From Ostreococcus lucimarinus (Eukaryota), in assembly GCA_000092065.1 (NCBI GenBank), contig CP000581.1: a stretch of DNA of 64,000 nt; one strand, given 5' to 3'. The notes beneath the pieces are model-generated. The model searched no databases. It saw nothing but the letters and a program-made list of their open reading frames with translations, and had not been told where the DNA came from. Positions 10,171-61,837 of this stretch are shown piece by piece (positions within the stretch are counted from its first letter, which is position 1; each line of letters begins with the position of its first letter). Position numbers and translations under genes: made by a program.

Positions 10171-10215
10171 CCGTCGCTCGCGGGCGTGTGCGGGACATCG
10201 CGACGCGCGCGCGCG

Positions 10216-11565
10216 ATGTCGACGGCGCGCGCGCGAACGCCGACGGCGCGCGCGGACGCGACGACGCGACGCCGTTCGCGCGACGTCGGCGCCCGCGCGA
10301 CGTCGCCGCGCGCGCCGACGCGCGACGACGGCGCGACGGCGCGACGCGACGCGCGAGGCCGCGACGCGATCGCGACCGCGCTCGCGGCGCTCGCGATGCA
10401 CGCCGCGGCGGCGACGCGCGCGAGCGCGATCACGGAGAATCAGATGCTGTACCTGGAGGCGTGGCGCGCGGTGGACAAGGCGTACGTCGATAAGACGTTC
10501 AACGGGAACAATTGGTTTAAACTGCGCGAACGAGGATTGAAGACGGCGGATTTGGACGACACGGAGGCGACGTACGGGACGATACGAGAGATGCTCGGGA
10601 AACTCGGGGATCCGTTCACGCAATTTTTGGAGCCGGAAAAGTACGCGAGCGTGACGGATCGAACGATGAAGGCGGACGTGAGCGGGGTGGGCGTGGAGAT
10701 GGGATTCGGCGACGACGCGAAGGTCGTGGTGGTCGCGCCGACGCCGGGAGGGCCGTCGGCGGAGGCTGGGGTGAAGGCGAAGGATTTTATCGTCGCCGTG
10801 GACGGCGCGGCGACGCGCGGGAAGAGTTTGTACGAAGTCGCGGACGAATTGCAAGGGCCGCAGGGGAGCAAGGTGACGCTGACGCTCGAACGGGATGGGA
10901 AGACTCGAGACGTCGCGGTGCAGCGAAAACGATACACCGTGGTGCCGGTGACGTCGGCGACGTGCGAGGTGAAGGGAGACAAGAAAATTGGTTACGTGAA
11001 ATTGTCGGCGTTTAATCAAGTCTCAGGGGCGAAGACGAAGGAGGCGCTCGCGGCGCTGAAAGCCGACGGCGTCGACGTGTTCGTGCTCGATCTGCGCGAC
11101 AACGTCGGTGGGCTGTTTCCCGGTGCTTTGGAAATCGCCAAAGCGTTCATGAATGAAGGCACGATCGTGTACATCGCCGACTCCAACGGCGAGCGCGACG
11201 TCTTCCAGGCGGATCGAACGGCGTTGGACGCCGCGACGCCGCTCAAGCTCCTCGTGAATAAAGGCACGGCGAGCGCGTCCGAGGTCTTGAGCGGCGCTTT
11301 ACAAGACAACAAGCGCGCCATCGTGCTCGGCGAGCAAACGTTCGGTAAAGGCTTGATTCAAACGCTCGTCCCGCTCTCCGACGGTTCGGCGGTGAGCGTC
11401 ACCGTGGCGCAGTATCGCACGCCAAACGGCACCGACATCAACAAGATAGGCATCACTCCGGACGCCCCGCTACCGCTCGACGCATCAGGCGCCGACATCG
11501 TGCCGTCGAACGCCGCTGATTTTTGCGCCTACGCTCGAGAGGCGCCAGAGTTATTCATTTCTTAA
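10216..11565 (+). CDS. CTPA: Carboxyl-terminal processing protease (CtpA, S41 family, D1 protein C-terminal peptidase) with bipartite plastid/lumen transit peptide
   Basis: ATG at 10216 (in frame with ORF 9007..11565). The N-terminal extension is S/T/R-rich, followed by a hydrophobic AIATALAALAMHAAAATRA-SA lumenal signal. The mature part has MLYLEAWRAVDKAY, a PDZ domain (GVEMGF...VVVVAPTPGGPSAEAGVKAKDFIVAVDG), and the S41 catalytic region LVNKGTASASEVL...GEQTFGKGLIQT. Confidence 0.8.
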   Translation: MSTARARTPTARADATTRRRSRDVGARATSPRAPTRDDGATARRDARGRDAIATALAALAMHAAAATRASAITENQMLYLEAWRAVDKAYVDKTFNGNNWFKLRERGLKTADLDDTEATYGTIREMLGKLGDPFTQFLEPEKYASVTDRTMKADVSGVGVEMGFGDDAKVVVVAPTPGGPSAEAGVKAKDFIVAVDGAATRGKSLYEVADELQGPQGSKVTLTLERDGKTRDVAVQRKRYTVVPVTSATCEVKGDKKIGYVKLSAFNQVSGAKTKEALAALKADGVDVFVLDLRDNVGGLFPGALEIAKAFMNEGTIVYIADSNGERDVFQADRTALDAATPLKLLVNKGTASASEVLSGALQDNKRAIVLGEQTFGKGLIQTLVPLSDGSAVSVTVAQYRTPNGTDINKIGITPDAPLPLDASGADIVPSNAADFCAYAREAPELFIS

Positions 11566-31977: not shown

Positions 31978-32220
31978 CTATCATCGATACCAAAATTTAA
32001 CGCACACCGTCAGTCACTCGCGCTCTCGCGTCGTCGTTCCGTTCGCGCCCCGCGCGCGCCCGTTTGGATAAACCCCAAACGACCCATCTCGCCGTCGGCG
32101 ATTCGCGCCGCGCGCGCCCGCGATTCGCGCCGCCCCCCCCCCCCGGCGCGTCCCGCACAAAAAAAAACTCCTCGCGCGCGTTTCTCGCTCGCGCGCGCGC
32201 GTCGCGTCGCTCAAACGTAC
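31978..32220 (-). other. ATPG: Spliceosomal intron (243 nt) of ATPG; contains (C)12 at about 32133..32144 and (A)9 at about 32159..32167
   Basis: Donor ...GCG TTG ATC|GTACGT. Acceptor ...ggtatcgatgatAG|GCG GAG AAG. In-frame TAG at 31978..31980 means read-through is not possible. Intron length is a multiple of 3. Confidence 0.6.
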
Positions 32221-32592
32221 GATCAACGCCTCAACCTCCGCCGAGTTCCCGCCGACCGCGGCGAGCTGCGATCGAATGAGCTCGTCGCGATCGTCGAGCG
32301 CCTTCCCCACCGGCCCGAACACCGTCTTATCGAGGATCGTCATCAGCAGCAAAAATTCCGTCGCGATGATCGGCAGCGTGAGATCGAAGTCGAACAGCTT
32401 CCCCGCCTCGGCGTGCGCCGCCGGGACCGCGCACGCGATCTGCGCCGCGAGCGTCATCGCGGGGAGCTTGACGCGATCGACGACGTCGGCGACGCGCGCC
32501 TTGACGGCGGTCGCGCGCGTCGCCGCGCGCTTGCTCGGCGCGGGCGCCTTCGCGGCGGTGATTCGGATCGCGCGGGCGGCGACGAGGGACAT
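32221..32592 (-). CDS. ATPG: ATPG exon 1 (transit peptide plus membrane anchor)
   Basis: ATG at 32592 gives MSLVAARAIRITAAKAPAPSKRAATRATAVKARVADVVDRVKLPAMTLAAQIACAVPAAHAEAGKLFDFDLTLPIIATEFLLLMTILDKTVFGPVGKALDDRDELIRSQLAAVGGNSAEVEALI. GKLFDFDLTLP...FLLLM...LDDRD is the hallmark b' (atpG) motif. Joined protein is 204 aa. Confidence 0.65.
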
Positions 32593-32710
32593 CTCGTTCG
32601 TGGGCGTGCGCGTGTGTGTCGCGATCCGCCGTCGCGGCGCGACGCGTGCCTCGCGCGGGGATTCGATCGCGAGATTCGCTTCGTCCGTGTGTCGCGCGGC
32701 GTCACCGGTC

Positions 32711-32945
32711 TCGCGATCGATCGACCGTCCGCCGTCGATCGATGGCGCGACGGTCGCGCGCGCGCGTCGAACCTCGCGTCGTCGATCGACGCGCGACGTC
32801 GCGACCGCGCGCGCGACGCCGCGCGCGGGCGTTCGCGCGCGACGCCGAATCGCGACGCGACGCGACGCGGCGACGCGATGCCGCGACGCGCGGCGACGCG
32901 CGCGCGGTAGATCGATCGCCATGGCGCCGAGCCATCGATCGTCGT
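32711..32945. promoter_or_regulatory. GATCGATC palindrome clusters in the ATPG / LTD-gene divergent intergenic region
   Basis: tcgcgatcgatcgaccgtccgccgtcgatcgatggcgcg (about 32711..32750) and gtagatcgatcgccatggcgccgagccatcgatcgtcg (about 32908..32945), seen directly. Confidence 0.4.
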
Positions 32946-33385
32946 ACGGCGCGCGCGATCGCACGTACGCGTGTCGCGCGACGCTGCGGATGTGGACCGC
33001 GTGCGCGTGCTTTCCGTGCGTGGGCGAGACGCTGTGCGAGCCCGGAGACTTGGGGTATCGCGCGCGATATCTCGTGTTTCGATGCGAGCGCGCGCGCGCG
33101 ATCGGCGGACGCGCGGCGGAGATGGCGGGGGAGGACGTGCGCGGGATGGTGGAGGCGCTCGAGGACGACGTCTTCGCGTGCCGGGTGAGCGCGGGCGAGG
33201 GCGCGGTGGAAGTCGAGATTCGAGCGGGAAGTCGAGCGAGGGTGCTGATGTACGCGCTGACGCTGCGGACGGCGGACGGGCGGGGGCTGGGGTTGGAGCT
33301 GGTGGAGGAGCGACGCGCGAGTCGACGCGAGACGGTTGGGTGGTGACGTTTCCGAGGGCGCGCTCCGAGGGCTTCATAATCGAGC

Positions 33386-34042
33386 ATGCGGTGGTCGAGC
33401 GCGTGGATCGTCGCGATGTGCGTCGTCGTCGCGGAGGCGACGTCGATACCGGCTGAACCGCGCGAGGTGACGCGATACGGCGCGGCGCAGATTACTGAGA
33501 TTTCTTACGAACAACTCGACGCGGCGGACGCGACGGAGGGCGAGACCGCGGGCTCGGGGGACTGGATCGAAATTTACAACCCGAGTGAAACCGACAAAGT
33601 AGATCTCACCGGTTGGGCGTTCACCGATCGCAGCGCGCGCGCGATCGAAAAGAATCCCGAAGTCGCGGTTGGTCATTGGTTCGAGCTGCCCGAACTCGAG
33701 CTCGCCCCGAAATCGTTCGCCGTGCTCGCGCGCGACGAAATGGCGTTTCGCACAGCGTATCGCGACCGCGACAACGCGCTCGACGCGCTCGTCCGAGGGA
33801 GCTTCAAGTTTGGACTCACCGCCAAGGGCGAGACGGTTCGTCTTTTGGACGCGTCCAACGAAACCGTGTACGAGCTGACGTACGACGACAAGTCCCCGTG
33901 GCCCGACACCTCGGAAGGTGGACACAGCCTCGAGCTCATCGACGTTCGTCTAGATCCGAACGATCCGTTCAGCTGGATCAGTTCATACGAAGAGGGAGGC
34001 ACGCCGGGCGAAATCAACTCGATCGCGGTCTCGTGGGGGTAG
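33386..34042 (+). CDS. Secreted lamin-tail-domain (LTD) protein
   Basis: ATG at 33386. Signal peptide MRWSSAWIVAMCVVVAEA. Then ITEISYEQ...GDWIEIYNPSETDKVDLTGWAFTD...GETVRLLDASNETVYELTYDDKSPWP...GGHSLELID...DPFSWISSYEEGGTPGEIN matches the LTD consensus (InEi.y...eWiElyN....dLsGw.l.d...L.d..g..vD.v.Y...W....g.S.er......w.......TPG..N). Confidence 0.7.
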   Translation: MRWSSAWIVAMCVVVAEATSIPAEPREVTRYGAAQITEISYEQLDAADATEGETAGSGDWIEIYNPSETDKVDLTGWAFTDRSARAIEKNPEVAVGHWFELPELELAPKSFAVLARDEMAFRTAYRDRDNALDALVRGSFKFGLTAKGETVRLLDASNETVYELTYDDKSPWPDTSEGGHSLELIDVRLDPNDPFSWISSYEEGGTPGEINSIAVSWG

Positions 34043-34043
34043 C

Positions 34044-34111
34044 GCCGCGTAATCGAAGCCGCGTAATCGAAGCCGCGTAATCAAGCCGCGTAATCGAAGC
34101 CGCGTAATCGA
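34044..34111. repeat. Minisatellite: about 5 tandem copies of the 14-bp unit GCCGCGTAATCGAA, starting 2 nt after the LTD-gene stop
   Basis: gccgcgtaatcgaa gccgcgtaatcgaa gccgcgtaatcaa gccgcgtaatcgaa gccgcgtaatcga, seen directly. The repeated TAA gives stops in one frame. Confidence 0.85.
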
Positions 34112-34222
34112 CGCGCGTCGGTGCTCGATCGGATTCGATCTGTCTTTGAAATTCATTCTTTCATTTCGATCATCAACTAATACGTCGCGAGCGACACCGA
34201 CGCGGCGTAAATAAATGCTCCT

Positions 34223-35074
34223 CTACTTGATGGACGACCCCGAAGGCGTCTCTGGCGCCGTGCACTCACCCGCGGCGCACGCGAGCACCTTGTCGTCGTA
34301 CACCGCCTTGCCATCCTTCACGACGAGCTTTTCCTTAACGGCATCCCAAAACTTACTCTTGCACTCCTTCGGGTACGTCTCCGACGCGGTCATCCCCGTC
34401 GGCGTCACCGGCGCGCCGACTTCGGCGCCCTCGGGCGCGCGCACGAGCTTCACCTTCGTCTCGCCGTCAACCTCGAACTCCGTGGCCAGAATCATCGCCT
34501 CGGACGTTTGCCCCGCCAACTTCGCCACCTTCAAGTTCAAAATCGTCAGCACCAAAGCGTCCTTCAGTTCGCTCTCCGGGACAAACTTGCGCAACCCCGT
34601 GACGACTTGCCTCGGGTTCTCTTCGCCGCAGTCCACCTTGCACAGATACAATTTATCGCTATTCTCCACGCGTCCCACCTCGATCACGCGTCCGACGACG
34701 AGTTTCGCCTTTTCCATCGGATCCGCGTCCACCGCCGCCGCCGCCGCCGGTCTCTTCTCCTTCTTCTCCTTCTTCTTCCCGCCCTCGCTCGCGTCGCTCG
34801 CGGGCCTCCGCACCCCCTCCCCCCTCGGCTTGATCACCGGGTTCAGCATCGCCACGATGTACTCGCACGTCTGATCGAACGCCTCGGGCATGGGATTGTT
34901 CGCCTCGAACGGTTTCGTCATCACGTATCCCGTGCGCTCGCACGTCACGCGCGTCACGCCCCGCGGCGGCGCGCGCGCGATCGGATCGGCGCGCGCCGTC
35001 GCGTCGACCGCGCGCGTCGTCGCGGGCGCGCCGGCGCCGAGCAAAGCGTCGGCGAACGCGGACATCGTTTCCAT
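34223..35074 (-). CDS. tRNA-binding (Myf/EMAP-II-like) domain protein, Arc1p/AIMP1(p43) family
   Basis: ATG at 35074. Lys-rich linker KKKEKKEKR. Then an OB-fold tRNA-binding domain: KLVVGRVIEVGRVENSDKLYLCKVDCGEENPRQVVTGLRKFVPESELKDALVLTILNLKVAKLAGQTSEAMILA. Confidence 0.7.
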   Translation of the reverse strand: METMSAFADALLGAGAPATTRAVDATARADPIARAPPRGVTRVTCERTGYVMTKPFEANNPMPEAFDQTCEYIVAMLNPVIKPRGEGVRRPASDASEGGKKKEKKEKRPAAAAAVDADPMEKAKLVVGRVIEVGRVENSDKLYLCKVDCGEENPRQVVTGLRKFVPESELKDALVLTILNLKVAKLAGQTSEAMILATEFEVDGETKVKLVRAPEGAEVGAPVTPTGMTASETYPKECKSKFWDAVKEKLVVKDGKAVYDDKVLACAAGECTAPETPSGSSIK

Positions 35075-38282: not shown

Positions 38283-41200
38283 ATGTCGGCGGCCAAGGCG
38301 GCGGCCAAAGCGGAACGCGCCGCGGCGCTCCGTAAGGATGTCGACTTCGTCGAACACACGTGGGCGGCGGAAAAGCTCTATGCGCACTTTGGATGCACGC
38401 TCGAAGATGGTTTGTCCAACGAGCGCGTGCTCGAGAACCGCGCCAAGTACGGCGAAAACCGGCTGACGCCTCCCGAGGTGACGCCGTGGTACATCAAGTT
38501 TTTGATGCAGTTTGCGAACTTTTTCGCGCTCTTGCTTCTCGGGGGTGGGGTGCTTTGCTTCGTTGGTTACGCCATCGATAGTGAAAAGGATCAAACGAAC
38601 TTGTATCTCGGCGTGGTGCTCTTCACCGTCGTCATGATTACGGCGACGTTTTCCTTCTTGCAAGAAGCCAAGTCCGAAGCCATCATGGAGGGTTTCAAGA
38701 GCATGATCCCGAAGAAGTGTAAGGCGATCCGTGGCGGCAAGGCTGTCGTCATCGATGCCTGGGAGCTCGTTCCGGGTGATGTCGTCGATCTCAACGACGG
38801 CGACCAAGTCCCGGCGGATATTCGCGTCATGCGCTCCAACGAACTCAAGGTTGACAACTCTTCTTTGACCGGTGAGTCTGAGCCGCAAGATCGTACTCCG
38901 GAACTCGCGGTCGACTCCAATGGTAACATCGTCACGCAGCCGCTCGAATCTACGAACTTGTGCTTCTACACGACGATCATCAACTCTGGTTCCGGTCGCG
39001 GCGTCGTCATCGGCAGCGGCGATCGCACCGTCATGGGTCAAATCGCTGGTCTCGCCACGGAAACGAGCGGTGAAGACTCGCCGATTTCTAAGGAAATCAA
39101 GAAGTTCATCCAACTCATTTCTATCGTCGCCATCACGCTCGGTATCGTTTTCTTTGTCGTCGGTTTGACCAACGGGACGGCGATTATTCAAAACGTCGTC
39201 TTCATGATTGGTATCATCGTCGCCAACGTGCCGGAAGGTCTCCTCGCCACCGTGACTGTGTCTTTGGCTTTGACTGCCAAGCGCATGCACGCGAAGAACG
39301 TGCTCGTGAAGAACCTCGAAGCCGTCGAAACTCTCGGTTCGACGACTGTCATCGCCTCCGACAAGACGGGTACGCTCACGCAAAACCGCATGACGGTGCA
39401 ACACGCGTGGTACGACAACAAGGTTTACTTCTGCCCGGCGGGTAAAAATATCCCGGATCTCAAGGTTATCTCTGAACCCGGCCAAACGCCGGATGGTGAA
39501 CCGTTCTACGATCAGTCTTCGGAAGCGTTCCAACGCTTGCTCCAAGTCGCCACTTTGTGCAACAACGCCGAGTACTTGACGAAGAGCGAAGACGGCTCCT
39601 TCATCGACCTCAAGGCTGAAATGATGAACCCGAACTTCAATATTCTCAAGCAACCGGCCACCGGTGACGCTTCCGAACAAGGTTTGCTCAAGTTGGTTCA
39701 GCCGCTCAACGACGCTCTCGACACCCGCGCCAAGTACCCGAAGTTGTTCGAAATCAAGTTCAACTCGACGAACAAGTGGCAGCTGTCCATTCACGGGCAA
39801 CCGGGCGGCCGTCCGCCTCTGCTCGTGCTCAAGGGTGCGCCGGAGCGCGTGTTGGCCAAGTGCACGTCGTACTTTTCCAACGGTAAGACGTCGAGCAAGG
39901 ATGCCGAATTCGAGCGCACCTACACGCAGTCTTACGAAGATCTCGGCGGTCGCGGTGAGCGCGTCCTCGGTTTCGCGTTCAAGGAACTCTCTGGATTCAA
40001 GAATGACTTCAAGTTTTCCCAAAAGCCGAAGCCGAACTTCCCGATCGATGACCTCACCTTCGTCGGTCTCTTCTCTCTCATTGACCCGCCGCGCGAAGGC
40101 GTTCCGGAAGCCGTGACGAAGTGCAACCGCGCTCGCATCAAGGTTTACATGGTCACGGGTGATCACCCGATCACCGCAGCGGCCATCGCGAAGCAAGTGA
40201 ACATCGTCTCTCAAGAAAACCTCGACAACGGCACAGCCTGCGTCGTGAAGGGCGACGACATTCGCGCGTGGACTGAAATTGAAGACCCGGTCGCTCAACG
40301 CGCCAAGTGGGACGCGGCTCTCGATCACAAGCAAATCGTTTGGGCGCGCGTGTCTCCGGCACACAAGCTCTTGATCGTCGAAAACTGCCAACGACGCGGC
40401 GAAATCGTCGCCGTCACCGGTGATGGCGTCAACGACGCCCCGGCGCTCAAGAAGGGTGACATCGGTATCGCCATGGGTATCGCCGGTAAGGATGTTTCCA
40501 AGGAAGCGGCTGACATGATTCTCATGGATGACAACTTCGCCTCCATCGTGAATGGTGTCGAAGAAGGTCGTCTCATCTTTGACAACCTCAAGAAGTCCAT
40601 CGCGTACACGCTTTCTTCCAACATTCCGGAAATCGCGCCGTTCTTGTGCTACATCACCGCCAAGATTCCGTCTCCGTTGACCACCGTGCTTATTTTGTGC
40701 GTCGATCTCGGTACGGATATGGTTCCCGCTATTTCCATGGCGTACGAAGAAAAGGAAGCCGACATCATGGATCGTCCGCCGCGCAACGCGCAAACGGATC
40801 GCCTCGTCAACTTCCGATTGATTTCTTTCGCGTACCTTCAAATCGGTATCATCCAAGCCCTCGCTGGCTTCTTCACTTACATGCTCGTCCTTAACGACTA
40901 CGGCTACACGCCGAGCATCTTGATGGGCAACGGCTTGAAGTGGACCAAAAACTCCTTGCTCTGCACCCTCAACGGTGACAGCATCGTGGACACGAATCAA
41001 GGCCGCGCCATCTACCGACCGAAGGCGTGCGGTTTCGGCTGCGCTGACTCGACCGGTACCATGGCGAACATGTGCAAAGGTGGATGCGCCATTCCGGTCG
41101 ATTACGTTCCGAGCACCACAGCCAATCTCGCGTCCCCGTTCCTTGCTCGCTTGGTGTCGACGAATGGAGCGACTGGAGTCACCGTGGATCCGTTCCTCGA

Positions 41201-41810
41201 ATTCGACGAGAATGGATTCCGCGGTAAAGGTCTCACGTGCGGCCGATCTTGCGCGTCGTTGGCATCTGCAACGCTTTCTACTGCCGAGCAAACCGCGTAC
41301 ACGTATTTCTGCTCGGACACGGGTACCACTGGCACTGCTTCCAACCTGGGCGGTGACACGGCCGGCTGGGGATTCTCCAGAGGGTACGTCGACGATAAAG
41401 CCATCGCTCCGGCGGGCGCGTACTACTGGTGGAACGGCGCTCCGCAGACGCAACCGAACGTCGACTACCAAACCGCCGCTCTCGAGTACGCGCAAACCGC
41501 GTACTTCATCACGATTATCATCGTCCAATGGGCCGATTTGATGATCGCCAAGACTCGCAAGTTGTCCATCTTTGAACAAGGCATGGGTAACGACTTCATG
41601 AACTTTGGTTTGATCTTCGAAACCGTCCTCGGCGCCACGTTGTGCTACACGCCCATCTTCAACAAAGTGTTTGGTACGCGCCCGCTGCACGTCCTTCACT
41701 GGTTCTCTGGCGTGCCTTGGTCGATTTTGATCTTCACGTACGACGAGTTGCGCAAGTCTTTGATTCGCTCCAACCCGAAGGGCTGGCTCGATCGCTGGAC
41801 GTACTGGTAA
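38283..41810 (+). CDS. P-type ATPase, type IIC (Na+/K+- or H+/K+-ATPase alpha-subunit-like) with large Cys-rich insertion in the M7-M8 extracellular loop
   Basis: ATG at 38283. DKTGTLTQNRMTV (phosphorylation site), TGDGVNDAPALKKGDIGIAMGIAGKDVSKEAADMILMDDNFASIV, C-terminal ...WLDRWTYW (cf. Na,K-ATPase ...WVEKETYY). Close full-length similarity to the Na,K-ATPase alpha subunit. The M7-M8 loop is about 190 aa instead of about 45 and carries about 10 Cys. Confidence 0.85.
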   Translation: MSAAKAAAKAERAAALRKDVDFVEHTWAAEKLYAHFGCTLEDGLSNERVLENRAKYGENRLTPPEVTPWYIKFLMQFANFFALLLLGGGVLCFVGYAIDSEKDQTNLYLGVVLFTVVMITATFSFLQEAKSEAIMEGFKSMIPKKCKAIRGGKAVVIDAWELVPGDVVDLNDGDQVPADIRVMRSNELKVDNSSLTGESEPQDRTPELAVDSNGNIVTQPLESTNLCFYTTIINSGSGRGVVIGSGDRTVMGQIAGLATETSGEDSPISKEIKKFIQLISIVAITLGIVFFVVGLTNGTAIIQNVVFMIGIIVANVPEGLLATVTVSLALTAKRMHAKNVLVKNLEAVETLGSTTVIASDKTGTLTQNRMTVQHAWYDNKVYFCPAGKNIPDLKVISEPGQTPDGEPFYDQSSEAFQRLLQVATLCNNAEYLTKSEDGSFIDLKAEMMNPNFNILKQPATGDASEQGLLKLVQPLNDALDTRAKYPKLFEIKFNSTNKWQLSIHGQPGGRPPLLVLKGAPERVLAKCTSYFSNGKTSSKDAEFERTYTQSYEDLGGRGERVLGFAFKELSGFKNDFKFSQKPKPNFPIDDLTFVGLFSLIDPPREGVPEAVTKCNRARIKVYMVTGDHPITAAAIAKQVNIVSQENLDNGTACVVKGDDIRAWTEIEDPVAQRAKWDAALDHKQIVWARVSPAHKLLIVENCQRRGEIVAVTGDGVNDAPALKKGDIGIAMGIAGKDVSKEAADMILMDDNFASIVNGVEEGRLIFDNLKKSIAYTLSSNIPEIAPFLCYITAKIPSPLTTVLILCVDLGTDMVPAISMAYEEKEADIMDRPPRNAQTDRLVNFRLISFAYLQIGIIQALAGFFTYMLVLNDYGYTPSILMGNGLKWTKNSLLCTLNGDSIVDTNQGRAIYRPKACGFGCADSTGTMANMCKGGCAIPVDYVPSTTANLASPFLARLVSTNGATGVTVDPFLEFDENGFRGKGLTCGRSCASLASATLSTAEQTAYTYFCSDTGTTGTASNLGGDTAGWGFSRGYVDDKAIAPAGAYYWWNGAPQTQPNVDYQTAALEYAQTAYFITIIIVQWADLMIAKTRKLSIFEQGMGNDFMNFGLIFETVLGATLCYTPIFNKVFGTRPLHVLHWFSGVPWSILIFTYDELRKSLIRSNPKGWLDRWTYW

Positions 41811-47357: not shown

Positions 47358-48839
47358 ATGGACTCCGAGTTCTGGGGGTGCGTCATCCCCGCGGGACGCG
47401 CGGTGCGCGTCGAAGTCGCGACGGACGAGGAGTACGTGCACGTCTCGCAGGCGGCGCTCGGCGCGGACGCGCGCGCGGGACGCACGACGGTGACGCTCGC
47501 GGTGGCGGACGACGCCGAGGCGAGCGGCGCGAGGGACGGGGCGCGACACGCGCTGTGCGCGCTGACGCGCGACGCGTGCGATCAGGTCGGGATGGACGTG
47601 GCGATGGACGCGAGCTTCGTGCTGCGAGCGACGGGACCGAACGACGTGCACGTGACGGGATGGCGGACGGCGAACGATGGGATCGACGAGGAGGAGGAGG
47701 CGAGGACGCTGGAGGCGATGGCGAGGGAGACGTCGAGCGAGGAGAGCGAACGGGAGAGCGAGGATTCGTCGGACGACGAGGACGCGGCGGAGGACGGGGA
47801 CGAGGAGGCGACGGACGACGAGAAGATGGACGCGGACTCGAGCGACGAGGAGGAGGAGGAGGAGGAGGAGGAGGAGGACGACGACGACGACTTTGAGACG
47901 CCGTACGACGTCGATAATTTGCCGAGCGACGGCGATTTATTCAGCGACAGCGAATGTGACGACGATAAGGCTTTCGCGAAAGCTATGGGTGTCGATAGCG
48001 AGGACGATCTCGAGAGCGATGAAGAGGAGGAATCCGATTCCGATTCCGAACCTGCCGTTCCGGAGCGAGACGCCGTGGTCAAGGTCGTGGGCGGGGATTC
48101 AGACAGCGAGGACTCGGACGAAGAGGAGTCCGACAGCGAAGAATCCGACAAACCGGTCAAGACGCTCGATCGATCGCCCGCGCTCAGGGACAAGCGCCAG
48201 AAACCCGACGAGTCCGAGTCGGAGTCCGAGTCGGAGTCCGAGTCGGAGTCCGACAAACCGAAAAAGAATGCGGAAGCGAGCGATTCCGACGAGTCCGAGT
48301 CAGAATCCGACAGCGACGAGTCGGATGGCGACGACGAGGACGAAAAATCCGCGTCCGAGCGCTCGGATGACAGCGAAAGTTCTTCCGACGTCGACGATTC
48401 TTCAGAAAGCGACGGTGACGACGCGGCAGAGGCAAATGACGATAGCGATTCCGATGACGCTGACAGCGACAGCGACGACGAATCGTCCGATTCGGACGTT
48501 TCTGAAGACATCAACGTCATCAAATCTGCAACCAAGCGGTTGGCCGAGACCTCGACGCCGAGCGGGTCGGCGAAAAAGCAAAAGAAGGAAAGCACGCCTG
48601 CGTCCGCAAAGGCACCGACGACGCCCAAGACGCCGACGACCGATACGAAGATGAACAGCGACGAGTACGCTAATCTTATTGTCGACTATCTCAAGGCGAA
48701 CCCCGAGACGATGATGTCCGCTCTCGGTGGACGCGTCAAGAAGCCGAAGAACTTTCCGCTCAAGCTCGGAGAGTTCATCAAAAGCAGAAAGGATTTATTC
48801 ACGATCGACGGCGCGTACGTTCGTCTCGTTAAAAAGTAA
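47358..48839 (+). CDS. HD2-type histone deacetylase / nucleoplasmin-like nucleolar protein, acidic-serine-rich, with C-terminal DEK_C-like basic domain
   Basis: ATG at 47358. MDSEFWGCVIPAGRAVRVEVATDEEYVHVSQAALG... matches plant HD2/HDT N-termini (MEFWGIEVKSGKPVTV...IHVSQASLG). Long D/E/S tracts (e.g. ESESESESESESD). C-terminal DEYANLIVDYLKANPETMMSALGG...LKLGEFIKSRKDLFTIDGAYVRLVKK. Confidence 0.65.
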   Translation: MDSEFWGCVIPAGRAVRVEVATDEEYVHVSQAALGADARAGRTTVTLAVADDAEASGARDGARHALCALTRDACDQVGMDVAMDASFVLRATGPNDVHVTGWRTANDGIDEEEEARTLEAMARETSSEESERESEDSSDDEDAAEDGDEEATDDEKMDADSSDEEEEEEEEEEDDDDDFETPYDVDNLPSDGDLFSDSECDDDKAFAKAMGVDSEDDLESDEEEESDSDSEPAVPERDAVVKVVGGDSDSEDSDEEESDSEESDKPVKTLDRSPALRDKRQKPDESESESESESESESDKPKKNAEASDSDESESESDSDESDGDDEDEKSASERSDDSESSSDVDDSSESDGDDAAEANDDSDSDDADSDSDDESSDSDVSEDINVIKSATKRLAETSTPSGSAKKQKKESTPASAKAPTTPKTPTTDTKMNSDEYANLIVDYLKANPETMMSALGGRVKKPKNFPLKLGEFIKSRKDLFTIDGAYVRLVKK

Positions 48840-57413: not shown

Positions 57414-57842
57414 ATGCTTATTCCGAAGGTGAACCGCAACGAGGTCTACAAGGCGCTCTTCTCCGAGGGTGTCATTTGGGCCAAGAAGGATTACAACTTG
57501 CCGAAGCACCCGGAGGTGGGGCAGTCGGGTGAGAACCCGATCGATGTGCCGAACTTGCAAGTGATCAAGCTCATGCAATCGTTCAAGTCTAAGGGTTTCG
57601 TCAATGAGATCTTCTCCTGGAGACATTACTACTGGTACTTGACGGATGAGGGCATCGAATACCTTCGCGAATACTTGAACTTGTCGGCGGACGTCGTGCC
57701 GAACACGTTGAAGAAGGCCGCGCGCGCGCCGACTCGCGAAGCCGAGGCCCCGCGCGGTGGTCGCGGTGGCCGCGGTGGCTTCGGCGGCGATCGCGGTGGC
57801 CGCGGTGGCTTCGGCGGCGACCGTCAAGGCTACCGCCAGTAA
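57414..57842 (+). CDS. RPS10: 40S ribosomal protein S10 (eS10) with duplicated RGG/FGG C-terminal repeat
   Basis: [34 protein letters not shown]...[22 protein letters not shown] matches eS10 (human [34 protein letters not shown]...[22 protein letters not shown]). The 3' end has an exact 33-bp tandem duplication encoding [13 protein letters not shown] x2. Confidence 0.85.
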
Positions 57843-61644: not shown

Positions 61645-61713
61645 CGTCGCCGAGCGGTCGCGCGCGCGTCTCCGCCGTCGTTCGCGTCGCGCGCGTCGTT
61701 TTGAATCTTTCGT

Positions 61714-61793
61714 CGCCCCCGTTCGGCGAAATCGCAAAATCGCCCCCGTTCGGCGAAATCGCAAATTCGCCCCCGTGTGGCGAAACGCAAATT
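61714..61793. repeat. Three tandem copies of a 27-bp unit CGCCCCCGTTCGGCGAAATCGCAAA(A/T)T in the Nse4 / RING-IBR divergent promoter
   Basis: cgcccccgttcggcgaaatcgcaaaat cgcccccgttcggcgaaatcgcaaatt cgcccccgtgtggcgaaacgcaaatt, seen directly. Reverse complement contains TTTCGCCG (E2F-like TTTSSCGC core). Confidence 0.8.
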
Positions 61794-61837
61794 CGCGACG
61801 CGACGCCGCGCGCGCGACGGCAGAGGCGCGCGCGCGC

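What the first reader, a model, noticed from the sequence alone, without database searches (positions are those of the whole stretch)
33386..34111. Secreted lamin-tail-domain (LTD) protein in an alga, followed by a 14-bp minisatellite
A 218-aa protein with a signal peptide and a full match to the LTD consensus (see the feature entry for the matching segments). LTDs are typical of metazoan lamins and bacterial extracellular proteins. A standalone secreted LTD protein in a photosynthetic protist is unusual. It could reflect bacterial-to-eukaryote transfer or a surface-adhesion module.

Two nt after the stop there are about five tandem copies of GCCGCGTAATCGAA (34044..34111), each carrying TAA. 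The minisatellite shows no interruptions.
Basis: partly seen in the sequence, partly recalled or inferred. Interest (0 to 1): 0.5.

Follow-up and report, generated by a model that had tools for sequence, protein, structure and literature searches.

The report
Secreted lamin-tail-fold protein of Ostreococcus
This is a real but ordinary gene of the marine green picoalga Ostreococcus lucimarinus, encoding a small, probably secreted protein with a bacterial-type lamin-tail fold that related picoalgae inherit at the same chromosomal position, followed by a short, slightly variable DNA repeat copied from the old stop-codon region.

Summary
ORF 33386..34042 (+) encodes 218 aa and matches Pfam LTD above the curated cut-off (44.5 vs 34.3 bits). 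A confident AlphaFold model finds lamin Ig-like tails as its top ten Foldseek PDB matches. The window is Ostreococcus lucimarinus. UniProt already calls the protein (A4RQK6) "LTD domain-containing". An almost identical MMETSP transcript shows it is expressed.

The gene is not unusual for this group. Syntenic orthologues, each with an N-terminal hydrophobic signal-like segment, occur in every Ostreococcus clade sampled, in Bathycoccus and in GC-rich Micromonas-like contigs. Codon composition is native and dN/dS is 0.1-0.3. LTD-like proteins of green algae were already tabulated in 2016. The domain is the bacterial type: 34-39% identical to domains in bacterial genomes, and 10-17% to lamins in structural alignments. 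Any transfer from bacteria would therefore predate this divergence, and a neighbour-joining tree could not resolve the origin.

The 14-bp array is real (4.9 copies) but has a 1-nt deletion in copy 3. It is specific to the O. lucimarinus lineage and varies in copy number: five copies in nine other assemblies, six in one. Its unit matches the last two codons plus stop of the sister-clade gene, which explains the TAA in each copy. Low interest; function remains untested.

The parts
33386..34042 (+). Single-exon CDS (218 aa plus TAG) of a standalone LTD protein. It equals O. lucimarinus XP_001415406.1 / UniProt A4RQK6, but with the correct upstream start codon.
   Evidence: ORF; Pfam LTD; cluster names. 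MMETSP transcript P0015 encodes 218 aa with V at position 11, so M1 rather than M11 is the start. dN/dS is 0.12-0.28.
33386..33439 (+). Predicted ER signal peptide, residues 1-18, with cleavage inferred after A-E-A.
   Evidence: Hydrophobic core with mean KD 2.75 at residues 6-16 and A at -3/-1. An equivalent N-terminal hydrophobic segment is present in 13 of the 14 other family members examined; the exception, P0007, looks N-terminally truncated. pLDDT is about 50 for residues 1-30. Inferred; SignalP was not run.
33476..34024 (+). Bacterial-type LTD beta-sandwich, residues about 31-213. The Pfam match covers 35-166 (nt 33488-33883). The conserved C-terminal SLELID...DPNDPFSW...GGTPGEIN strands lie beyond the Pfam model.
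33857..33865 (+). The only N-glycosylation sequon, N158-E-T160. N158 and T160 are invariant in all Ostreococcus orthologues.
   Evidence: Glycosylation itself was not tested.
34044..34111 (+). 14-bp minisatellite (GCCGCGTAATCGAA) with 4.9 copies and a 1-nt deletion in copy 3. It lies in the 180-nt spacer between two convergent genes, presumably in the 3' UTR.
   Evidence: TRF. Five copies in nine other assemblies and six in L015. Absent from the three other Ostreococcus lineages examined. The unit is homologous to GCC GCG TAG TCGA, the last codons plus stop of the sister-clade gene.
34112..34222 (.). Rest of the convergent intergenic spacer. Its distal half is conserved with the sister clade.
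   Evidence: Alignment A6. No Rfam match and fold z-score -0.19.
34223..35074 (-). Convergent neighbour: a tRNA-binding-domain (AIMP1/Arc1p-like) gene. It serves as a synteny anchor.
   Evidence: Pfam tRNA_bind in all orthologous loci; source names.
32921..33346 (+). Upstream conserved small gene (141 aa) that ends 39 nt before the LTD start codon. It is a second synteny anchor within Ostreococcus.
   Evidence: 39-77% identity to the corresponding ORFs in three other Ostreococcus clades. Called in the orthologous loci.

Best explanation
The region is an ordinary, intron-less nuclear gene of Ostreococcus lucimarinus. It encodes a small, acidic, cysteine-free protein of about 22 kDa when mature, with pI about 4.3. 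The protein consists of an N-terminal ER signal peptide followed by one bacterial-type lamin-tail (LTD) beta-sandwich.

Shown here:
- The fold assignment.
- Expression of a near-identical orthologue.
- Purifying selection.
- Vertical inheritance at a conserved chromosomal position in Ostreococcus, Bathycoccus and Micromonas-like genomes.

Inferred:
- The protein enters the secretory pathway and is released as a soluble protein, or held at the cell surface or in an endomembrane lumen.
- It acts as a non-catalytic binding module, as LTDs are thought to do in bacterial extracellular multidomain proteins.
- Its strongly acidic charge makes a glycan or surface ligand more likely than direct DNA binding.

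The 14-bp array is a lineage-specific replication-slippage product in the convergent intergenic spacer. It was copied from the segment that is the last two codons plus stop codon in the sister clade. It is mildly polymorphic (5-6 copies), and I found no evidence that it has a function.
For: - Identity and expression: same cluster as XP_001415406.1 / A4RQK6. MMETSP transcripts exist for the O. lucimarinus-type protein (P0015) and the O. mediterraneus protein (P0046).
- Signal-like N-terminus conserved across genera, with no other hydrophobic segment.
- Synteny: Npa1 ... LTD, then tRNA_bind on the opposite strand, in all loci read; an ATP-synt_B gene between Npa1 and LTD is recorded in the P0005-clade, O. 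tauri and Bathycoccus loci. The loci are O. lucimarinus-type, the P0005 clade, O. tauri, GC-rich Micromonas-like L097 and Bathycoccus L099/L100.
- Divergence of the LTD protein tracks that of its neighbour: 62/73, 60/72, 44/58 and 36/45% identity.
- GC1/2/3 is 0.62/0.48/0.77, like neighbouring genes. dN/dS is 0.12-0.28.
- Mature protein has pI 4.26 and no Cys.
- Array: TRF; genotypes; homology of the unit to the sister-clade stop region. No special RNA fold (z=-0.19) and no Rfam match. No other locus in the JGI metagenome contigs carries two perfect adjacent copies.
Against: - No dedicated signal-peptide or localisation predictor could be run, and no secretome or localisation data were found.
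- The ligand and function are unknown. Even for bacterial LTDs the role is unsettled: membrane association or help in DNA degradation have both been proposed (PMC6085458; PMC5118699).
- The transcript evidence comes from a sister strain that differs by one residue, not from this exact strain.
- The 3' end of the mRNA was not mapped, so placing the array in the 3' UTR is an assumption.
- Only 11 sequences were genotyped for copy number.
Confidence: 0.8

Rival explanations
1. The gene was acquired from bacteria. In the version that remains tenable, one ancient transfer of an FCB/PVC-type extracellular LTD domain reached an ancestor of the Mamiellales (or earlier), where it gained a eukaryotic signal peptide and then descended vertically.
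For: - The closest relatives outside the algal family that could be identified are bacterial: Latescibacterota, Gemmatimonadota, Bacteroidales and Paludibacter, at 34-39% identity over about 180 residues.
- Named near hits are bacterial lamin tail domain-containing proteins, and several hits carry a T9SS sorting domain, PF18962.
- The window protein is as similar to bacterial domains (37-42%) as to the Bathycoccus and Micromonas-like orthologues (39-42%).
- Similarity to lamins is only 10-17% in structural alignments.
Against: - A recent transfer is excluded by synteny across three genera, native codon-position GC and divergence that parallels the neighbouring gene.
- For an ancient transfer the neighbour-joining tree is uninformative: the algal sequences grouped as one clade in only 7 of 200 bootstraps, and no stable bacterial sister emerged.
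- The 15,061 profile hits carry no taxon labels, so closer eukaryotic relatives could not be excluded.
- LTD-like proteins occur in other green algae and in oomycetes. Vertical descent from an early eukaryote, followed by losses, is therefore an alternative.
Confidence: 0.4
2. The protein is not secreted. The N-terminal hydrophobic stretch would then be an organellar (plastid or thylakoid-lumen) or membrane-anchor signal, and the protein would act inside the cell.
For: No localisation predictor or experiment was available. Several database gene models carry long N-terminal extensions ahead of the hydrophobic segment (P0004, P0006, P0009, P0249).
Against: - In the window protein and in P0005, P0010, P0011 and P0242 the hydrophobic core starts within the first 10 residues, leaving no room for a transit peptide. 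It is followed by small residues typical of signal peptidase sites.
- The long extensions belong to uncurated metagenome gene calls in GC-rich DNA, where spurious upstream start codons are common (one search shows many spurious ORFs).
- The hydrophobic segment is short, about 11-13 residues, which suits a signal peptide better than a membrane anchor.
Confidence: 0.12
3. The protein is a divergent nuclear-lamina component, that is, a lamin relative of a green alga.
For: The fold is that of the lamin tail, and Pfam names the domain after lamins.
Against: - Pfam finds no filament or other family at E up to 1, and 218 aa leaves no room for a rod domain.
- There is no CaaX box; the C-terminus is ...AVSWG.
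- The protein has a signal-like N-terminus.
- Koreny & Field exclude such LTD-only proteins from the lamin family and found no lamins in Archaeplastida.
Confidence: 0.02
4. The 14-bp array is a functional element, for example repeated binding sites for an RNA-binding protein, a polyadenylation or termination signal, or back-up stop codons.
For: - It sits directly after the stop codon.
- The same five-copy structure, including the 1-nt deletion, is kept in a contig whose coding sequence differs at 3% of synonymous sites (L013).
- With a period of 14, TAA falls in all three reading frames.
Against: - It is absent from the sister clade and from the P0005-clade and O. tauri loci, where the gene is equally conserved.
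- Copy number varies, 5 against 6.
- The motif is not enriched elsewhere in the window.
- There is no stable RNA structure and no Rfam family.
- The unit is simply a copy of the old stop-codon region.
- Similar short arrays occur about once per 8 kb in this window.
Confidence: 0.08

Closest known systems
Bacterial extracellular LTD domains (Pfam PF00932), as found in T9SS cargo proteins of Bacteroidota and Latescibacterota and in nucleases such as Shewanella ExeM
   Same: Same extended domain of about 180 residues with shared motifs: (V/I)xE(I/V), DW(I/V)E(L/I)(Y/H)NP, F.FGLS..GE, PWP, G.SLEL, W..S...GTPG..N. Identity is 34-39% over residues 36-216. Both are exported proteins.
   Different: The bacterial proteins are mostly large. 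They carry tandem LTD repeats, catalytic domains or a C-terminal T9SS sorting domain (PMC6085458). The algal protein is a single LTD with a eukaryotic-type signal peptide and nothing else.
Ig-like tail domain of metazoan lamins A/C, B1 and B2 (PDB 1IFR, 3UMN, 7DTG, 2LLL)
   Different: Only 10-17% identity in the structural alignments. The algal protein has no coiled-coil rod and no CaaX box, and it has a signal-like N-terminus. Its domain is about 60 residues longer, with extra helices and C-terminal strands.
LTD-like domain proteins of green algae listed by Koreny & Field 2016 (Micromonas C1E2Y2, Bathycoccus K8EQX8, XP_007514062 and XP_007512269; CotH-LTD proteins of Volvox and Auxenochlorella)
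   Same: Non-lamin LTD-containing proteins of Chlorophyta. Many have N-terminal hydrophobic leaders.
   Different: Those are long, multi-LTD or CotH-fused proteins, and several have a C-terminal membrane anchor. The family here is a standalone single-domain protein that is syntenic across genera. It is not in the part of that table I read.
DUF4876 lipoprotein BT_1938 of Bacteroides thetaiotaomicron (PDB 4Q1Z)
   Different: 13% identity and rmsd 7.5 A. It is a 389-residue two-domain lipoprotein of unknown function, and there is no sequence-level relationship.

Membership tests
Pfam LTD (PF00932, lamin tail domain) | Whole-protein score above the curated gathering threshold, with near-full profile coverage | tested here: met
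   44.5 bits against 34.3; E=2.3e-11; profile positions 9-107 of 109. PF00932 is also precomputed for nearly all family members.
Pfam LTD (PF00932, lamin tail domain) | Ig-like beta-sandwich fold of the lamin tail | tested here: met
Nuclear lamins (type V intermediate filaments) | Central coiled-coil rod (Filament domain) N-terminal to the LTD | tested here: not met
   The protein has 218 aa. Pfam finds only LTD at E up to 1. Residues 1-30 are a hydrophobic leader.
Nuclear lamins (type V intermediate filaments) | C-terminal CaaX box and nuclear localisation | tested here: not met
   The C-terminus is ...IAVSWG with no Cys anywhere in the mature protein. The signal-like N-terminus argues against a nuclear location. 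Localisation itself was not tested.
Bacterial-type extracellular LTD proteins | Sequence similarity over the full extended domain, including the C-terminal PWP...SLEL...W...GTPG.N motifs | tested here: met
   tblastn gives 34-39% identity over query residues 36-216 in bacterial genomes. Best single-domain profile scores are 88-100 bits. Shared conserved columns appear in alignment A4.
Bacterial-type extracellular LTD proteins | Typical architecture: tandem LTD repeats, a fused hydrolase, nuclease or CotH domain, or a T9SS C-terminal sorting domain | tested here: not met
   A single Pfam domain with no other domain. Only one LTD ORF exists in the window. All algal orthologues are single-domain proteins of 200-440 aa.
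Classically secreted eukaryotic proteins | Cleavable N-terminal signal peptide with n-, h- and c-regions and small residues at -3/-1 | tested here: inconclusive
   The heuristic criteria are met and the feature is conserved in orthologues. No trained predictor and no experimental data were available.
Minisatellite / VNTR | Head-to-tail array of a 10-60 bp unit | tested here: met
   Period 14, 4.9 copies, 96% matches.
Minisatellite / VNTR | Copy-number polymorphism among individuals | tested here: met
   Five copies in the window and nine other assemblies; six copies in L015. The sample is small.

The most novel reading that the evidence does not exclude
A bacterial-type LTD module was captured before the Mamiellales diversified. 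It has since been kept as a single-copy, syntenic, secreted protein in Ostreococcus, Bathycoccus and Micromonas-like genomes. In this reading it serves a lineage-specific extracellular function of these naked or scale-covered picoalgae, such as binding a surface glycan, a scale component, or a bacterial or viral partner. That would give the first functional handle on what a free-standing LTD does outside the nucleus.
Probability: 0.2. Interest if true: 0.45.

Novelty: new member of a known kind. Interest (0 to 1): 0.2.

Why it matters
The practical value is modest.

- It corrects two public gene models. RefSeq XP_001415406.1 starts ten codons too late and loses its signal peptide. The O. tauri model OUS42877.1 has spurious introns that destroy the domain.
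- It defines a small orthologous family of standalone, probably secreted LTD proteins shared by the ecologically dominant marine picoalgae Ostreococcus, Bathycoccus and Micromonas-like lineages.
- It shows that this family belongs to the bacterial-type branch of the LTD fold rather than to lamins.

Gene targeting has been reported for O. tauri (from my own knowledge, not checked here). If so, the family offers a simple way to ask what a lone LTD binds, a question still open even for bacterial LTDs.

The minisatellite is a tidy example of an array born from a stop-codon region, and it could serve as a strain marker. Nothing suggests it does more than that.

Tried and rejected
- First AlphaFold run with a 10-sequence Ostreococcus-only alignment failed (pLDDT 34). 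It worked after adding Bathycoccus, Micromonas-like and bacterial sequences.
- The afdb50 fold library was not available, so no taxon-labelled structural neighbours were obtained.
- PDB sequence search with the family profile gave only a marginal hit (3I10, E=0.02), which I disregarded.
- NCBIfam gave no match.
- The exhaustive profile search returned 15,061 hits, but the 150 listed are ranked by summed score. Huge multi-LTD proteins therefore dominate, and there are no taxon labels. I re-scored the best single domains myself.
- A neighbour-joining tree with 200 bootstraps recovered each genus (84-98%), but not a single algal clade or a stable bacterial sister group. The origin question stays open. 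An earlier Biopython version of that script timed out.
- A scan of IMG/VR viral contigs for relatives, testing a possible prasinovirus link, found none.
- Rfam, RNA folding and promoter/terminator pattern scans of the spacer gave nothing beyond chance.
- A search for the repeat core GTAATCGA elsewhere in the window found 3 sites outside the array against about 2 expected, so there is no enrichment.
- Literature searches for the accessions and for 'lamin tail domain' with Ostreococcus found no papers.
- A flatworm adhesion paper that mentions LTD concerns an intracellular intermediate-filament protein and is not relevant.
- The DNA-binding idea borrowed from LTD-nuclease fusions was considered and down-weighted, because the mature protein is strongly acidic (pI 4.26).

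Full report
**Observation**

Pfam-A gives a single hit, LTD (PF00932). The E-value is 2.3e-11 and the score is 44.5 bits against a gathering score of 34.3. The match covers residues 35-166 and profile positions 9-107 of 109. NCBIfam has no match.

Tandem Repeats Finder reports an array at 34044..34111 with period 14, 4.9 copies, 96% matches, 3% indels and score 129. The array begins at the second base after the stop codon. Every copy contains TAA. One detail in the finding is wrong: copy 3 lacks one base (GCCGCGTAATC-AA) and the last copy ends in C, so the array is not uninterrupted. The exact 14-mer occurs nowhere else in the window. Only about eight arrays in the 64 kb score 85 or more.

**Organism and gene model**

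The protein's 90%-identity cluster contains XP_001415406.1 / ABO93698.1, 'predicted protein [Ostreococcus lucimarinus CCE9901]'. It also contains UniRef A4RQK6, 'LTD domain-containing protein'. That entry is 208 aa, is 100% identical to the window protein, and starts at Met11. The exact 218-aa protein lies on contigs of about 1.13 Mb in the JGI metagenome collection and is listed in 585 blocks of the collection.

An MMETSP transcript ORF in the same cluster (P0015, 'type:complete') encodes 218 aa. It differs only by Val at position 11. Two things follow. The gene is transcribed in a near-identical strain. Met1, not Met11, is the start codon, so the RefSeq model removes most of the N-terminal hydrophobic segment.

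**Is it secreted?**

Residues 1-18 (MRWSSAWIVAMCVVVAEA) have a basic residue, an 11-residue core with mean Kyte-Doolittle hydropathy 2.75, and Ala at -3 and -1. After residue 30 the highest 19-residue mean is 0.42, so there is no membrane anchor. A comparable N-terminal hydrophobic segment followed by small residues is present in 13 of the 14 other Ostreococcus, Bathycoccus and GC-rich family members examined, even though the sequence itself is not conserved; the exception, P0007, looks N-terminally truncated.

The mature protein is acidic (pI 4.26; 39 Asp+Glu against 17 Lys+Arg) and has no cysteine. It has one N-x-T sequon (N158-E-T160) whose Asn and Thr are invariant in Ostreococcus. No trained signal-peptide predictor was available, so secretion is an inference.

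**Fold**

An AlphaFold run with ten Ostreococcus sequences failed (pLDDT 34). With 35 sequences, including Bathycoccus, GC-rich algal and bacterial homologues, the model reached pLDDT 86.6 and pTM 0.80. Residues 31-213 were confident and the leader was disordered.

The structured domain is about 180 residues. It extends beyond the Pfam match into the conserved SLELID...DPNDPFSW...GGTPGEIN segment.

**Family and origin**

A word-indexed search found only close relatives: all Ostreococcus clades, at 51-99% identity. These include O. tauri and O. mediterraneus entries that UniProt also names LTD domain-containing.

An exhaustive profile search found 15,061 proteins at E<=0.001. The listed top hits are mostly 1000-3000-aa proteins with many LTD repeats. 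I re-scored the best single domains. One 283-aa standalone protein (P0210) stood out at 139 bits, against 88 or less for all the others.

A second profile search retrieved three groups:
- A Bathycoccus group, including an entry named Bathycoccus prasinos, at about 37% identity.
- A GC-rich group with long low-complexity inserts, at about 44% identity over the conserved core.
- Bacterial proteins, several with the T9SS sorting domain PF18962.

Gene neighbourhoods settle orthology. The order Npa1 ... LTD, then a convergent tRNA_bind gene, is found in all of the following (an ATP-synt_B gene between Npa1 and LTD is recorded in the second, third and fifth):
- the O. lucimarinus-type contigs
- the 62%-identity clade
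- O. tauri
- a 70%-GC Micromonas-like contig
- 46%-GC Bathycoccus contigs

The genus of the GC-rich group is inferred from composition and synteny only. No source names it.

LTD identity to the window protein falls in step with that of the neighbouring tRNA-binding protein: 62/73, 60/72, 44/58 and 36/45%. GC at codon positions 1/2/3 is 0.62/0.48/0.77, typical of genuine genes in the window. dN/dS is 0.28 against the sister clade and 0.12 within the lineage. This is therefore an old, vertically inherited, constrained gene, not a recent import.

**Bacterial or eukaryotic ancestry?**

In bacterial and archaeal genomes the best tblastn matches are 34-39% identical over residues 36-216. They come from Latescibacterota, Gemmatimonadota, Bacteroidales and Paludibacter. 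Over trimmed alignment columns the window protein is as similar to the best bacterial domains (37-42%) as to its Bathycoccus and Micromonas-like orthologues (39-42%).

A neighbour-joining tree with 200 bootstraps recovers each genus (84-98%). It does not recover a single algal clade (7 of 200) or a stable bacterial sister. The domain clearly belongs to the bacterial-type branch of the LTD fold. Whether it arrived by an ancient transfer or descends from an early eukaryote remains open.

**What was already known**

Koreny & Field (2016, PMC5630835) state that LTD-like domains occur in bacterial enzymes and in 'several eukaryotes' that lack coiled coils and are not lamins. Their Supplementary Table S1 lists such proteins from Micromonas, Bathycoccus, Volvox and Auxenochlorella. 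Those are long multi-LTD or CotH-fused proteins, not this family. I found no paper on this protein or on LTDs in Ostreococcus.

For prokaryotic LTDs the function is still unsettled. Membrane association has been proposed. In the Shewanella nuclease ExeM, deleting the LTD reduces DNA degradation in vitro but does not abolish it (PMC6085458; PMC5118699; PMC4486849).

**The minisatellite**

The same five-copy array, including the 1-nt deletion, is present in nine other assemblies. One of these (L013) has a coding sequence that differs at 3% of synonymous sites. One metagenome contig (L015) has six copies.

A scan of the JGI metagenome contigs for two perfect adjacent units found only this locus. 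The array is absent from the 79%-identity sister clade, the 62% clade and O. tauri.

Aligning the gene ends explains the unit. The sister clade reads TGG GGC GAC GCC GCG TAG TCGAGAG, which encodes ...W G D A A stop. The window reads TGG GGG TAG C GCC GCG TAA TCGAA, followed by repeats of GCCGCGTAATCGAA. The unit is thus a copy of what is the last two codons, the stop and four following bases in the sister lineage. That is why each copy carries TAA. The sister clade has its own TCGAGAG duplication at the same spot, so the site is prone to slippage.

The spacer RNA folds no better than shuffled controls (z=-0.19). It matches no Rfam family and shows nothing beyond chance in pattern scans. I read the array as a neutral, mildly polymorphic slippage product.

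**Verdict**

The interpretation that this is unusual, or a sign of gene transfer, is only partly supported.

The gene is a routine, already auto-annotated member of the LTD superfamily. It belongs to a small, previously undescribed orthologous group of standalone, probably secreted LTD proteins found in Ostreococcus, Bathycoccus and Micromonas-like genomes. Its function is unknown. My best guess is an extracellular or luminal non-catalytic binding module. Interest is low.

Noticed in passing
window 33386-33418: RefSeq XP_001415406.1 (208 aa) starts at Met11 and so loses most of the signal-like segment. A near-identical MMETSP transcript has Val at position 11, so the start must be Met1 (218 aa).
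   Followed up: yes
L010 4001-4693 (O. tauri RCC1115, KZ155838.1): The O. tauri model OUS42877.1 (199 aa) does not equal the translation of its gene range. The unspliced 693-nt ORF encodes 230 aa (P0008). The annotated introns delete part of the LTD, and no Pfam hit is recorded for that model.
   Followed up: partly
window 32921-33346 (+): A conserved small gene (141 aa, with motif CFPCVGETLCEPGD and no Pfam family on record) ends only 39 nt before the LTD start codon. It is 39-77% identical in three other Ostreococcus clades. Where the LTD promoter lies, or whether the two genes share a transcript, is unknown.
   Followed up: partly
L011 1470-1490 and L012 1327-1347 (sister clade): At the position of the window's 14-bp array the sister clade has a different small tandem duplication (TCGAGAG x2) and a protein three residues longer (...WGDAA). 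The gene end is a slippage hot spot.
   Followed up: yes
L015 about 1100-1330 (Ga0209666_1003753): One environmental contig carries six copies of the 14-bp unit instead of five, plus one non-synonymous difference in the LTD gene.
   Followed up: yes
P0249, P0251, P0253, P0255; L097 6001-6756: The GC-rich (Micromonas-like) orthologues carry long low-complexity inserts inside the LTD: poly-Asp runs, Arg/Ala-rich and Pro/Ser/Lys-rich stretches. These inflate the protein to 250-440 aa while the core strands stay conserved.
   Followed up: no
window 61713-61796, 57754-57820, 48210-48253, 10199-10429: Other clean tandem arrays occur in the window: 27 bp x 3.1, 30 bp x 2.2, 12 bp x 3.7 at 100% identity, and a 75-bp CG-rich array. 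Short minisatellites are common in this genome.
   Followed up: no
window 32000-33400 and other intergenic stretches: Intergenic DNA is richer in G+C (0.70-0.75) than coding DNA (about 0.55-0.62). It is full of CG-rich low-complexity repeats and yields many long spurious ORFs on both strands, for example 32014-33387 (-) at 457 aa.
   Followed up: no
L001/L002 14756-17672 versus L003-L006 14897-18431: In two environmental contigs the gene call at the cation-ATPase position is 954 aa with no Pfam hit recorded. In the others it is a 1039-1174-aa P-type ATPase; in the window it is 38283-41810, 1175 aa. This could be a gene-calling or look-up difference or a real variant.
   Followed up: no
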